Shown piece after piece: positions 46,836 to 54,941 of a stretch of 64,000 nucleotides of DNA (its first letter is position 1; each line of letters begins with the position of its first letter). Source of the DNA: a virus. Position numbers and translations under genes: made by a program. The notes beneath the pieces were generated by a model that was not told where the DNA came from, did not search any database, and saw nothing but the letters and a program-made list of their open reading frames with translations. The stretch is from IMG/VR virus record IMGVR_UViG_2711768806_000001. The stretch is one strand, 5' to 3'.

Positions 46836-46844
46836 CAACAGACT

Positions 46845-47071
46845 TACATCGCTTTTCACGGCGGGATGCCAGCGTTCTCCAAAGTCGATGGGGATGACGA
46901 TTCCACCAGCCCTCGGGTGCCGTGTTGAGTACATAAAAATGTGACGGGTTAAGCCATAGGGGCAGAAATGCCGCCCGCGGGGACATATAAACCCCGCCGT
47001 TAGCCTTCGGGCGCGTAGACCCACTTCGGTGGAGGATTAAGCTTACCCAGTTTTTTGCAGAGAAATCTGCA
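46845..47071 (+). ncRNA. Candidate structured non-coding RNA
   Basis: Gap in a packed operon; GAAA and two UUCG tetraloop hairpins; ACGGCGGG/CCCGCCGT long-range helix. Confidence 0.55.
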
Positions 47072-47138
47072 GCGCACGGCCGGAATGGTCCGGCATGAAT
47101 TCCGATTCATCAAGGTTCAACTCCTTGCGTGCGCACCG
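47072..47138 (+). tRNA. Non-canonical, shortened tRNA-like cloverleaf (TCC, Gly-like)
   Basis: 7-bp GCGCACG/CGTGCGC stem, AATGGT D-like loop, TTCCGA loop, CAAGG-TTCAACT-CCTTG T arm; no variable loop, no U8, 3' ACCG. Confidence 0.55.
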
Positions 47139-47139
47139 G

Positions 47140-47174
47140 GCCACGGGAGGTGTCTGCTCCCTCCCGTGGCTTTT
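47140..47174 (+). terminator. Intrinsic terminator
   Basis: GCCACGGGAG / CTCCCGTGGC then TTTT. Confidence 0.75.
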
Positions 47175-47203
47175 CCATGCCCATTTATCAGGAGGTAGGA
47201 CCC

Positions 47204-47503
47204 ATGCGCGGATTCGACAAATACCAGCAGGCCCTGCTTGCCGGGTTGTGGGCACTGTGCGACGCCCAGCCCCCCGAGAAGCAGGAGCTGCGCCGGCTGC
47301 TCAACCCCCGCACCACGGTGACCAGCGAAGCGCACGTCGTCATGGCCACAAGGGCGGCCGAGGACTTCCACCACAACATCCGCAAGGGTTTGACGGAGCT
47401 GTCTCGGTCCACTCAGAAATACCCTCGCTACGCCTTCGACAAAGACCGCCGGGGAACGGGTGTCCCGAATCATCGAAAGGTCAGGGTCAATGACGGTCGA
47501 TAA
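47204..47503 (+). CDS. Hypothetical protein
   Basis: AGGAGGT SD. Confidence 0.7.
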   Translation: MRGFDKYQQALLAGLWALCDAQPPEKQELRRLLNPRTTVTSEAHVVMATRAAEDFHHNIRKGLTELSRSTQKYPRYAFDKDRRGTGVPNHRKVRVNDGR

Positions 47504-47633
47504 CGCGGCCAAGGTTCTTTACCTGGCCTACCACAAGGATCGCTACGCCCCGCATTGGGAGTCCGCTTTGGATAAGACGCGGTGGCGGCGGGCGGCGGCG
47601 GCCCTACTCCAGGCCATGTCCAATGCCGATTAG
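47490..47633 (+). CDS. Hypothetical 47-aa protein
   Basis: MTVDNAAKVLY...WRRAAAA; overlaps neighbours. Confidence 0.55.
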   Translation: MTVDNAAKVLYLAYHKDRYAPHWESALDKTRWRRAAAALLQAMSNAD

Positions 47634-47958
47634 GCCGGAGAACCGCAAGCGATACCCGCCCGATTGGCGTGAGATAAGCCAGCGCATCAGATTTGTGCGC
47701 GCCGACGGACGCTGTGAATGCGAGGGCGAATGCGGACGTGGCACCCATCGGGGGCGCTGCCCAAACCGGCACGGTGAGCCCGCCTACGGCACCGGTAGCC
47801 GCGTCGTTCTCACCACGGCGCATCTCAATCACATTCCCGAGGACTGCCGCGACGAGAACCTCCGCGCAATGTGTCAGGGATGCCACTTGCATTACGACAA
47901 GGATCATCACGCCGCCACAAGGGCGGCCCGCCGCGCAGCTCTCCAGGAGATTAAATGA
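47623..47958 (+). CDS. HNH endonuclease-like protein
   Basis: GRCEC.GEC...LTTAHLNH..EDCRDENLRAMCQGCH. Confidence 0.8.
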   Translation: MPIRPENRKRYPPDWREISQRIRFVRADGRCECEGECGRGTHRGRCPNRHGEPAYGTGSRVVLTTAHLNHIPEDCRDENLRAMCQGCHLHYDKDHHAATRAARRAALQEIK

Positions 47959-54014: not shown

Positions 54015-54941
54015 ATGAAAATCTGGGCAATGCGCGGACTCCCCGGAAGCGGGAAATCCACCCGGGCGCGGGAAATCGCCAGGCAACACGACGCCGTCAT
54101 CATCAACCGGGACCTTATTCGTCAGCAGCTCCTAGACTCCTGGTGGACGGGCAAAACCGAAGACGAAGACCGCGTCACCATTGCCGAGAAGGCCCAGGTT
54201 GAGGCATTCCTCAAACAAAACGTCAACATCGTCATCGACAACACGAATCTTAATCCGAAGTTTCTTCGCCAGTGGGCGCGGCTCGCCACCCAATACGGTG
54301 CAGAATTCGAAGTCGTCGATATCAAAACCGACGTAGACGAATGCAAGCGCAGGGCGTACCGGCGCTGGTCCCAAGAGGCCGGCACCCCACTGGAGCGCTA
54401 TATCGACCCCCGGGTGATCGAAGCTAAGGCCAAGCAGTTTCCCATGGAGAAGTGGCCGAAGATCGCGGCCGAGCCTTTCACCATCGAGCCGGTGGAATGG
54501 ATCGATGGACTGCCCGAGATCGTCTTGGTTGACATCGATGGGACTTTGTCGCATATGACTGGCCGCAGCCCTTACGACTACTCCCGCGTCGGGGAGGATG
54601 TCGTCGACGAACAGGTTCGGCACATCCTCAACCTAATCTGGTTTGAGTCCTTCTGTGGGGTATTCCTGATGTCTGGCCGTCCCGACACCTGCCGCACCGA
54701 GACCGAAATGTGGCTTGGCAGAAACTCCATCCGCTTTGACGAGTTGTACATGCGCCCGGCCGACGCCAAGGACGAGCGCGGCAACAAGTTGCCCGATTAC
54801 CAGGTTAAGTACCACTTGTTCAATGAACACATTCGCGGCAAATACAACGTCCGATTCGTTTTGGATGATCGTCGGCAGGTTGTGGATATGTGGCGGAAGC
54901 TGGGGCTGAAATGTCTTCAGGTCGCCGAAGGGAATTTCTAA
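54015..54941 (+). CDS. Polynucleotide 5'-kinase/3'-phosphatase (T4 PseT-like)
   Basis: GLPGSGKST P-loop; DIDGT HAD motif; SGR; LDDR. Confidence 0.92.
   Translation: MKIWAMRGLPGSGKSTRAREIARQHDAVIINRDLIRQQLLDSWWTGKTEDEDRVTIAEKAQVEAFLKQNVNIVIDNTNLNPKFLRQWARLATQYGAEFEVVDIKTDVDECKRRAYRRWSQEAGTPLERYIDPRVIEAKAKQFPMEKWPKIAAEPFTIEPVEWIDGLPEIVLVDIDGTLSHMTGRSPYDYSRVGEDVVDEQVRHILNLIWFESFCGVFLMSGRPDTCRTETEMWLGRNSIRFDELYMRPADAKDERGNKLPDYQVKYHLFNEHIRGKYNVRFVLDDRRQVVDMWRKLGLKCLQVAEGNF

What the first reader, a model, noticed from the sequence alone, without database searches (positions are those of the whole stretch)
46845..47071. Unexplained densely structured non-coding RNA island in the early operon
Seen: in a region where nearly every gene overlaps its neighbour, about 370 bp (46836-47203) has no credible ORF and is full of helices. 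These include ACGGCGGG (46858)/CCCGCCGT (46993), ACAT-AAAA-ATGT, GGCA-GAAA-TGCC, GCC-TTCG-GGC, CCAC-TTCG-GTGG and TGCAG/CTGCA. Two further complementarities would cross the long helix as pseudoknots: GGGTTAAGC (46946)/GCTTACCC (47041) and CATCGCTTT (46848)/AAAGTCGATG (46882). Inference: GNRA/UUCG-capped helices plus pseudoknots suggest a folded functional RNA (ribozyme-like, decoy or scaffold). I cannot assign it to a known family.
Basis: partly seen in the sequence, partly recalled or inferred. Interest (0 to 1): 0.75.

Follow-up and report, generated by a model that had tools for sequence, protein, structure and literature searches.

The report
New phage RNA with tRNA-like end
The gene-free island is a real, conserved, folded RNA of Cluster J and X mycobacteriophages: junction modules joined to a tRNA look-alike with no anticodon, always upstream of one small unknown protein, in no known RNA family, and not described in the papers searched.

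Summary
The window is a Cluster J mycobacteriophage (Omegavirus). The 368-nt gap 46836-47203 between two early genes has no conserved ORF.

It encodes one + strand RNA, about 46839-47176, with these parts:
- a variable 5' domain;
- a five-way-junction module (46946-47048);
- a short hairpin (47057-47070);
- a 63-nt tRNA-like cloverleaf without an anticodon loop (47072-47134);
- a tail hairpin.

I found the element in about 17 lineages: Cluster J, WXIN, Cluster X (Nebkiss, and a 90,460-bp IMG/VR record I take to be Gaia), Mycolicibacterium/Mycobacterium proviruses and metagenome contigs.

Covariation is strong. The module has 96.4% paired cells and 20 of 30 pairs with double changes. The tRNA-like part has 99.1% and 19 of 22. 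In both, 0 of 500 shuffles reached the observed values.

That pairing is the closing helix of the junction, not a pseudoknot.

Rfam 15 gives only sub-threshold mascRNA-like hits to the tRNA-like part, and ARAGORN finds nothing.

A small protein of unknown function (phrog_6612) follows the RNA wherever the DNA on both sides could be read.

Function is inferred, not shown. My preferred reading is an RNA cut out by host tRNA-processing enzymes that acts with a partner.

The parts
46839..46856 (+). 5' leader. AGACUU (46840-46845) is conserved as AAGACUUU at the start of the element in other lineages.
   Evidence: Alignments. Conservation begins just after the stop codon of the upstream gene (TAA 46833-35). 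The 5' end of the RNA has not been mapped.
46857..46942 (+). Variable 5' domain. It holds helix CACGGC/GCCGTG (46857-62 with 46919-24), helix GGGAT/ATTCC (46863-67 with 46900-04), an inner hairpin with loop AAAGUCGAU, hairpin GCC-CTCG-GGT (46909-18) and hairpin ACAT-AAAA-ATGT (46931-42).
   Evidence: MFE fold. A hairpin with an AAGUA-type loop recurs in Omega, WXIN, L024 and L027. The domain differs greatly in length and content between lineages, so support is weak.
46946..47048 (+). Module A, a five-way junction. P1 is GGGU.AAGC / GCUUACCC (46946-54 with 47041-48). Pa is 46959-75 with a bulged G. Pb is 46977-97 with the 9-nt loop ACAUAUAAA. Pc is 46998-47015 with a UA bulge. Pd is 47021-32. 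The junction strands GUAGAC and AGGAUUAAG are conserved.
   Evidence: Model R1 hits 13 loci at E 7e-36 to 9e-8 and more. Pair counts: 96.4% paired, 20 of 30 pairs changed on both sides, 0 of 500 shuffles as high, slid controls 40-50%. An invariant U-G pair fixes the strand as +.
47051..47071 (+). U-run (47051-56), then hairpin GCAG-AGAAAU-CUGC (47057-70) and A47071, which abuts the acceptor stem.
   Evidence: In WXIN, L024, L025, L027, L028, L030, L034 and L041 the same GCAG/CUGC helix closes a full second module of the form AAAUAC-GGG[hairpin]CC-UACAC-C[hairpin]G-AGGNAAAR. The helix covaries: UCAG/CUGA in L024 and GCAAG/CUUGC in L030. The window's hairpin therefore looks like a reduced module B.
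47072..47138 (+). tRNA-like cloverleaf. It has a 7-bp acceptor GCGCACG/CGUGCGC, a D arm CCGG-AAUGGU-CCGG, a mini 'anticodon' hairpin AUGAAU-UCCG-AUUCAU, a T arm CAAGG-UUCAACU-CCUUG and discriminator A. It is followed by CCG here and by CCA in many relatives.
   Evidence: Model R2 hits 13 loci. Pair counts: 99.1% paired, 19 of 22 pairs compensatory, G1-C72 invariant. Sub-threshold mascRNA-menRNA hits of 23.3 and 30.8 bits against a gathering score of 42.5. ARAGORN finds no tRNA. The anticodon arm is absent in about half of the lineages.
47138..47176 (+). Tail hairpin (GGCCACGGGAGG / CCUCCCGUGGC) followed by UUUU, which looks like a terminator in this lineage.
   Evidence: A long hairpin at this place folds in 12 of 12 lineages. 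The 5' strand is always G-rich and the 3' strand CCUCC-like. In the other lineages the hairpin is 20-25 bp with an inner GAGCCGG segment, and many lack a U-tract.
47204..47503 (+). Downstream gene of 99 aa (P0003), phrog_6612, function unknown. RBS AGGAGG at 47190-95.
   Evidence: PHROGs E = 5e-58 and no Pfam match. A homolog lies downstream of the RNA wherever the DNA on both sides could be read. The AF2 model has low confidence: three helices and a basic tail.

Best explanation

The family is modular. It has a variable 5' domain. Next come one or two copies of a junction module with this grammar: closing helix, AAUAC, G-bulged hairpin, UAGAC or UACAC, C-hairpin-G, AGG-A-rich strand, closing helix. 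Then come a tRNA-like domain that keeps the acceptor stem, T arm and D/T elbow but has lost the anticodon loop, and a long tail hairpin.

Most likely mechanism (inferred, not shown):
1. The RNA is transcribed with the early lytic operon.
2. Host tRNA enzymes recognise the tRNA-like domain. RNase P would cut at its 5' side. RNase Z or exonucleases and the CCA-adding enzyme would act at its 3' side.
3. This would release or define a stable structured RNA whose conserved junction strands bind a partner. It would also leave the downstream message starting with a protective hairpin.

The partner could be the small basic protein always encoded next to the RNA (phrog_6612) or a host factor.
For: **Shown**
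- The element is conserved in Cluster J. Blastn conservation to the Omega subgroup spans exactly 46859-47137 while the flanks diverge.
- In the provirus L016 the RNA core is the only stretch of 12 kb with nucleotide similarity to phages in the database.
- It also occurs in WXIN, Nebkiss (Cluster X), proviruses and metagenome contigs.
- Covariation supports the junction module and the tRNA-like domain.
- The T loop (UUCRANU) and the GG of the D loop are kept in all lineages, while the anticodon arm varies from a 6-bp hairpin to nothing. Selection is therefore on the 'top half' of the tRNA shape, which RNase P, RNase Z and the CCA-adding enzyme read (established knowledge).
- RNA and protein are linked, including 4 of 4 cases found from the RNA side alone.

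**From the literature**
- In the same host, M. smegmatis, the tRNA-like domain of YrlA has a 7-bp acceptor stem. [quoted passage not shown]
Against: - There are no expression or end-mapping data.
- The helix or hairpin just 5' of the acceptor stem is separated from G1 by one nucleotide. It could stack on the acceptor stem and hinder RNase P.
- CCA is encoded in only some lineages.
- Linkage to phrog_6612 could reflect conserved gene order or cis-regulation rather than binding. One lineage (L031) has another ORF between the RNA and the protein gene. One homolog (P0021) has only 112 nt upstream, and its DNA could not be read.
- Nothing shows what the junction modules bind.
Confidence: 0.4

Rival explanations
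1. The element is a cis-acting leader (riboswitch-like or protein-operated) that controls the phrog_6612 gene. The tail hairpin pairs a CCUCC-like strand with a GGAGG-like strand. A change in the upstream fold would free CCUCC to mask the real Shine-Dalgarno sequence (47190-95), or would decide termination at the hairpin.
For: - The RNA is always on the same strand directly upstream of the same gene family.
- The tail hairpin sits next to the RBS in 12 of 12 lineages. Its G-rich 5' strand and CCUCC-like 3' strand always have the same orientation.
- A U-tract follows the hairpin in Cluster J, L024 and L026.
Against: - At 370-600 nt with a tRNA-like domain, it resembles no known leader.
- In L031 the tail hairpin stays with the RNA while another ORF separates it from the gene.
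- No alternative antiterminator or anti-sequestor pairing is conserved.
- No Rfam riboswitch or T-box match.
Confidence: 0.2
2. The tRNA-like domain is a decoy for host or prophage defences that act on tRNA acceptor ends. Candidates are nucleotidyltransferase toxins of the MenT/AbiEii type and RelA-SpoT-type toxins that pyrophosphorylate CCA ends. The upstream modules would stabilise the decoy or present it.
For: - Only the acceptor/T-arm half and the elbow are conserved, and the anticodon is dispensable.
- G1-C72 and C74 are invariant, and A73 is kept in all but a few lineages such as L026.
- The RNA is expressed from the early region of temperate mycobacteriophages.
- That such toxins exist in mycobacteria and their prophages is my own knowledge. 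It was not tested here.
Against: - No link to any defence system was tested.
- A plain decoy would not need about 200 nt of conserved junction modules or a linked protein.
- CCA is mostly not encoded.
Confidence: 0.12
3. It is a processive antitermination RNA in the manner of the put RNAs of phage HK022. The tandem structured modules would fold on the nascent transcript and make RNA polymerase read through the tail terminator and later ones.
For: - It lies inside an early operon, directly before a terminator-like hairpin, with more early genes downstream.
- The modules are repeated.
Against: - The tRNA-like domain is unexplained by this reading.
- Most lineages lack a U-tract after the tail hairpin.
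- No sequence or structural likeness to put or EAR RNAs was found by Rfam.
Confidence: 0.08
4. It is a self-cleaving or self-splicing ribozyme, such as a group I-like intron or a small nucleolytic ribozyme.
For: Several stable tetraloop-capped helices and conserved junction strands are present. Cluster J phages do carry group I introns elsewhere (PMC3706429).
Against: - No Rfam ribozyme or intron hit even at E <= 10.
- The flanking genes are complete and independent, each with its own stop codon, RBS and start codon.
- The flanks differ between lineages while the element stays the same.
Confidence: 0.04
5. The element is chance structure in a spacer, or an unrecognised small protein gene.
For: Some records annotate a 'hypothetical protein' over it, for example Omega gp110, Baka 106 and Wanda 108.
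Against: - The covariation is far above the controls.
- Loop and helix lengths change by numbers not divisible by three.
- In the window the frame through the core has no start codon and is 35 codons at most.
- The annotated ORFs differ in strand and extent between records.
Confidence: 0.02

Closest known systems
MALAT1/MEN-beta with mascRNA/menRNA (vertebrate long RNA ending in a tRNA-like cloverleaf; Rfam RF01684)
   Same: A larger structured RNA is directly followed by a small cloverleaf of about 60 nt. The cloverleaf has a 7-bp acceptor stem, a good T arm and a shortened anticodon arm. It is the only Rfam family to score at all (23.3 and 30.8 bits). In MALAT1, RNase P cleavage at the cloverleaf makes the 3' end of the upstream RNA, which is the mechanism I infer here.
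   Different: MALAT1 is a eukaryotic nuclear RNA. The scores are below the gathering score of 42.5, and I treat the likeness as architectural rather than as homology. There is no triple-helix 3' end element here, and the upstream part consists of junction modules.
Bacterial Y RNA YrlA (M. smegmatis and Ro-encoding mycobacteriophages)
   Same: It is a non-coding RNA with a tRNA-like domain in the same host genus. M. smegmatis YrlA is cut by RNase P and gets CCA added (PMC4201824).
   Different: YrlA has the permuted order T arm, acceptor-like stem-loop, D arm, plus a Ro-binding helix. Here the order is that of a normal tRNA. There was no Rfam YrlA hit and no TROVE/Ro gene in the nearest held Cluster J genome.
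tmRNA with SmpB
   Same: A large structured RNA carries a tRNA-like domain lacking an anticodon arm, and a small basic protein is encoded next to it in some genomes.
   Different: In tmRNA the acceptor stem is made by the two ends of the molecule. G3-U70 is required for alanine charging, and a tag reading frame is present. Here the cloverleaf is contiguous at the 3' end, pair 3-70 is mostly G-C, no tag frame was found, and ARAGORN finds nothing.
tRNA-like structures with upstream pseudoknot domains at the 3' ends of plant RNA viruses (TYMV, TMV, BMV)
   Same: A viral RNA ends in a tRNA mimic preceded by a conserved structured domain, and host tRNA enzymes are exploited.
   Different: Those are genomic 3' ends of eukaryotic RNA viruses, are built with pseudoknotted acceptor stems, and are aminoacylated. 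Here the element is a DNA phage transcript with a standard acceptor stem, and charging is unknown.
Large 'ornate' phage-associated RNAs of unknown function (GOLLD, ROOL)
   Same: They are phage or prophage encoded, multi-junction, often next to tRNA genes, and of unknown function.
   Different: They are 2-3 times larger and occur in different hosts. No Rfam match was found. They do not carry a fused tRNA-like 3' domain as a constant feature (from my own knowledge).

Membership tests
canonical tRNA | 7-bp acceptor stem, 5-bp T stem with a UUCRANY loop, and a D loop with GG | tested here: met
   and the sequences.
canonical tRNA | 5-bp anticodon stem with a 7-nt loop carrying an anticodon; recognised by a tRNA finder | tested here: not met
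   The window has a 6-bp stem with a 4-nt loop. Omega has 3 bp with a 4-nt loop. WXIN, L024, L025, L027, L030 and L033 have no arm at all. ARAGORN finds 0 genes.
tmRNA | acceptor stem formed by the 5' and 3' ends around pseudoknots and a tag reading frame; G3-U70 | tested here: not met
   The cloverleaf is contiguous. Pair 3-70 is G-C in 9, A-U in 2 and G-U in 2 of the 13 distinct rows. ARAGORN finds no tmRNA. There is no Rfam tmRNA hit.
YrlA / Y RNA | match to the Rfam model; Ro (TROVE) protein encoded nearby; permuted T-AS-D order | tested here: not met
   No hit at E <= 10 or E <= 1. TROVE is absent from the nearest Cluster J record G001. The arm order here is that of a tRNA.
mascRNA-menRNA (RF01684) | score at or above the Rfam gathering score (42.5 bits) | tested here: not met
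   23.3 bits (window) and 30.8 bits (L026). The likeness is one of architecture only.
group I intron or other Rfam ribozymes | match to a covariance model; an interrupted host gene | tested here: not met
   No hits. The flanking genes are whole. Catalysis was not tested.
T-box and other riboswitch leaders | match to an Rfam model; conserved terminator/antiterminator alternative | tested here: not met
   No Rfam hit. No conserved alternative pairing was found by eye, and this was not tested exhaustively.
attP core (3' half of a host tRNA gene) | identity to a host tRNA 3' half, next to the integrase | tested here: not met
   The Cluster J attP lies at Omega 54,667-54,710, in tRNA-Leu (PMC3706429). 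No genome of 185,579 species carries the T-arm plus acceptor sequence.
new family proposed here (junction module + tRNA-like RNA of Cluster J/X phages) | module A or B grammar, then a tRNA-like domain, then a tail hairpin, upstream of a phrog_6612 gene | tested here: met
   Window: R1 145.5 bits and R2 100.9 bits. The gene scores E = 5e-58 against phrog_6612.

The most novel reading that the evidence does not exclude
This is a new class of modular phage RNA that couples one or two copies of a previously undescribed junction module to a tRNA 'top-half' mimic. It would work as a ribonucleoprotein with the small phrog_6612 protein, or with a host tRNA-handling factor, to manipulate host tRNA biology, defence or transcription early in infection. 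That would make it a phage counterpart of tmRNA/SmpB or Y RNA/Ro.
Probability: 0.3. Interest if true: 0.85.

Novelty: new variant of a known kind. Interest (0 to 1): 0.72.

Why it matters
Non-coding RNAs that borrow the tRNA shape (tmRNA, Y RNAs, mascRNA, viral tRNA-like ends) each revealed a new use of the tRNA machinery. This would be the first such RNA I know of in DNA phages that fuses a tRNA top-half mimic to conserved junction modules.

- It occurs in well-studied, easily engineered phages of M. smegmatis (Clusters J and X).
- It is unannotated, or mis-annotated as small proteins, in dozens of GenBank records.
- It is constantly paired with a protein family of unknown function.
- It is therefore directly testable by deletion, end mapping, RNase P assay and pull-down.
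- It would also give Rfam a new family, and phage annotators a reason to remove spurious ORFs.

Tried and rejected
- **Rfam at gathering score on the whole window:** no hits. At E <= 10 on the region and E <= 1 on five longer homologs, only sub-threshold mascRNA-like hits to the tRNA-like part plus chance microRNA and plastid hits.
- **ARAGORN:** no tRNA or tmRNA.
- **attP idea:** rejected.
- **Recent capture of a host tRNA half:** no match in genome contigs.
- **Y RNA idea:** no TROVE gene.
- **Public runs:** no RNA holder is listed. A wastewater 'RNA-Seq' run (probably DNA) holds an identical 178-nt contig. The laid contigs added nothing on ends or expression.
- **Pattern scans:** Genome contigs gave 0 hits twice and metagenome contigs 0 hits once.
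- **Promoter and terminator consensus scans:** nothing at the element. The tail hairpin has only four U and fails the scan's rule.
- **The protein:** AF2 gave mean pLDDT 61.6. Foldseek against PDB gave no match. The ESM Atlas features gave only unnamed clusters. Pfam gave nothing.
- **Literature:** the searches found no description of this RNA. The supplements of the 10,006-csRNA survey (PMC10690425) are not held, so I cannot exclude that it is listed there without a name.
- **MAFFT alignments of the module (A3, A5):** these misaligned Pa and the 3' strand of P1. I therefore built the models from the near-identical window group and let Infernal align the rest.
- **Not built:** a third model for module B. 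Its grammar rests on reading the sequences.

Full report
**What the window is**

The region is 99-100% identical to Cluster J mycobacteriophages (Omegavirus) such as Dove, Optimus, Redno2 and Schatzie. In Schatzie the early rightward genes 92-111 are packed end to end. The exception is a 368-nt gap between genes 98 and 99, which corresponds to window 46836-47203. Most records leave the gap empty. Some place differing 'hypothetical proteins' on it.

**Checking the observation**

The + strand of the gap folds to -143 kcal/mol, with z = -2.75 against dinucleotide shuffles. The - strand gives z = -1.77. Rfam has no family at gathering score anywhere in the window, and ARAGORN finds no tRNA or tmRNA.

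At a permissive threshold the only notable hit is mascRNA-menRNA at 47072-47134 (23.3 bits, E = 0.034). That stretch is a cloverleaf with four arms:
- a 7-bp acceptor stem;
- a D arm with GG in the loop;
- a 6-bp hairpin with a 4-nt loop where the anticodon arm should be;
- a canonical T arm.

**Relatives**

- Blastn finds the gap in 47 phage records. The Omega subgroup is 82% identical over exactly 46859-47137 while the flanks are unalignable. WXIN matches only the core.
- A core pattern found a provirus of 152 kb (L016). In 12 kb of that provirus, the RNA core is the only nucleotide match to any phage record.
- The gene after the gap (47204-47503, 99 aa, phrog_6612, no Pfam) is homologous in all four lineages.
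- I used its profile to collect further homologs and fetched their contigs. Every contig with enough upstream DNA has an ORF-free gap of 430-600 nt holding the same RNA. These are L024 (Mycobacterium sp. provirus), L025-L028, L030, L031, L033, L034 (phage Nebkiss, Cluster X) and L041.
- In the other direction, a looser RNA pattern found three more viral contigs. All three have the protein gene 220-280 nt downstream.

**Structure**

I built covariance models from the near-identical window group with hand-drawn structures and let Infernal align the diverged lineages.

- *Module A (46941-47052).* It is a five-way junction closed by GGGU.AAGC/GCUUACCC, with hairpins Pa, Pb, Pc and Pd. Thirteen loci match (E 7e-36 to 9e-8). 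Of the cells, 96.4% pair. Twenty of 30 pairs change on both sides. No shuffle of 500 reaches any observed measure. Sliding the partners drops pairing to 40-50%.
- *The tRNA-like domain.* It matches 13 loci, with 99.1% pairing and 19 of 22 pairs compensatory.

These alignments are fitted to the models, which favours the structure. However, many of the compensatory changes can be read directly from the raw sequences. Examples are Pb GCGGGG/CCCCGC against GCCUGG/CCAGGC (WXIN) and GCGAGG/CCUCGC (L016), and P1 AAGC/GCUU against AAGU/ACUU. An invariant U-G pair in Pc and other G-U pairs fix the strand as +.

- Pa, Pc, Pd and the TGCAG hairpin hold.
- GGGTTAAGC/GCTTACCC holds, but as the closing helix P1 rather than a pseudoknot.
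- The long ACGGCGGG/CCCGCCGT helix competes with Pb. Pb covaries, and WXIN has no partner for the long helix. I therefore reject the long helix, and with it the pseudoknot topology.
- The 5' pairing CATCGCTTT/AAAGTCGATG is specific to the window's lineage. A shorter GACUU/AAGUC version is possible in several lineages but is invariant, so it is untested.

**Modularity**

In WXIN, L024, L025, L030 and L034 the helix GCAG/CUGC, which is a bare hairpin at 47057-70 in the window, closes a second junction module. Its grammar is AAAUAC, GGG[hairpin]CC, UACAC, C[hairpin]G, AGGNAAAR.

L027, L028 and L041 carry two such short modules and lack Pb and Pc. Module A follows the same grammar with two extra hairpins, and model R1 detects a short module in L041 at E = 0.003. 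The window's lineage is thus a reduced form. Its tail hairpin also lacks the inner GAGCCGG segment present elsewhere.

**The tRNA-like domain**

All lineages keep the following:
- G1-C72;
- a 7-bp acceptor stem;
- a 5-bp (rarely 4-bp) T stem;
- the T loop UUCRANU;
- GG in the D loop;
- C74, and A73 in all but a few lineages (L026 has G).

The anticodon arm is a short hairpin in Cluster J, L016 and L026. It is missing in about half of the lineages. CCA is encoded in many Cluster J phages but reads CCG in the window, and it is not encoded elsewhere. What is conserved is therefore the part of tRNA read by RNase P, RNase Z and the CCA-adding enzyme.

The domain is not the phage attP, which lies elsewhere in tRNA-Leu (PMC3706429). 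No sequenced prokaryote carries the same T-arm plus acceptor sequence.

**What it is not**

- It is not a coding region.
- It is not a tmRNA, Y RNA, T-box, known riboswitch or known ribozyme.
- The paper searches returned no description of it.

**How it may work**

The following is inference. M. smegmatis processes another tRNA-like non-coding RNA, YrlA, with RNase P and CCA addition (PMC4201824). The domain here should therefore be recognised in the same way.

My preferred reading is a MALAT1/mascRNA-like arrangement. Processing at the cloverleaf would define a stable upstream RNA whose conserved junction strands bind a partner. It would leave the downstream message headed by a long hairpin.

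The constant neighbour phrog_6612, a small helical protein with a basic tail, is the obvious candidate partner. Its model is poor (pLDDT 61.6) and no fold or family match was found.

The rivals are a cis-regulatory leader for that gene, an acceptor-end decoy against tRNA-targeting defences, and a put-like antitermination RNA. The leader idea is favoured by the constant SD-like/anti-SD-like polarity of the tail hairpin. It is weakened by L031, where another ORF intervenes. None of these can be decided without experiments.

**Verdict**

The detailed helix map needed correction.

Noticed in passing
window 47135-47138: The window and about a dozen identical phages read ACCG after the acceptor stem. 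Thibault, Bobby, HokkenD and the Omega subgroup read ACCA. Both forms circulate, so an encoded CCA is not essential.
   Followed up: partly
L001:2594-2809 (Omega gp110), and genes such as Baka 106, Wanda 108, Beem 105, Halley 106 and HokkenD 93 (minus strand): The 'hypothetical protein' genes annotated over the RNA differ in extent and strand between records, and they overlap covarying helices. They are probably mis-annotations.
   Followed up: partly
L024:2010-2034, L030:~700-728, L033:~770-795, L034:~708-732, L027:~105-125, L002:~2275-2295: A conserved motif GCTCGCCAA(G/A)-ACAGGCTAGAGC lies 5-15 nt before the conserved AAGACUUU start of the RNA in the Cluster X-type lineages. In L024 and L030 it is preceded by TTGATT. 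It may be a promoter or an operator. It is absent in Cluster J, where the RNA follows a gene directly.
   Followed up: partly
L024, L030, L033, L034 (Nebkiss gp72): In the Cluster X-type lineages the gene just upstream of the RNA is a WhiB-family transcription factor. An esterase lies one or two genes further upstream, as in Cluster J.
   Followed up: no
L031:470-500 and L037:12077-12130 (-): There are further tRNA-like T-arm or acceptor matches in two relatives: GGTTCGATTCC at L031:483 and an R2 hit of 20.9 bits in L037. They may be true tRNA genes or fragments.
   Followed up: no
L033:1052-1103: The tRNA-like domain of this lineage has G3-U70, the alanine identity pair. The closely similar L030 has G3-C70, so this is probably a neutral wobble.
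   Followed up: partly
JGI 3300045391 contig (protein P0021): One phrog_6612 homolog has only 112 nt between it and the upstream gene, so it may lack the RNA. The DNA could not be fetched.
   Followed up: no
window 47623-47958; L001:1764-2141; L002:1791-2288: Free-standing HNH endonuclease genes lie near the RNA in several lineages, but at different positions. This fits the known mobility of these genes in Cluster J and suggests no link to the RNA.
   Followed up: no
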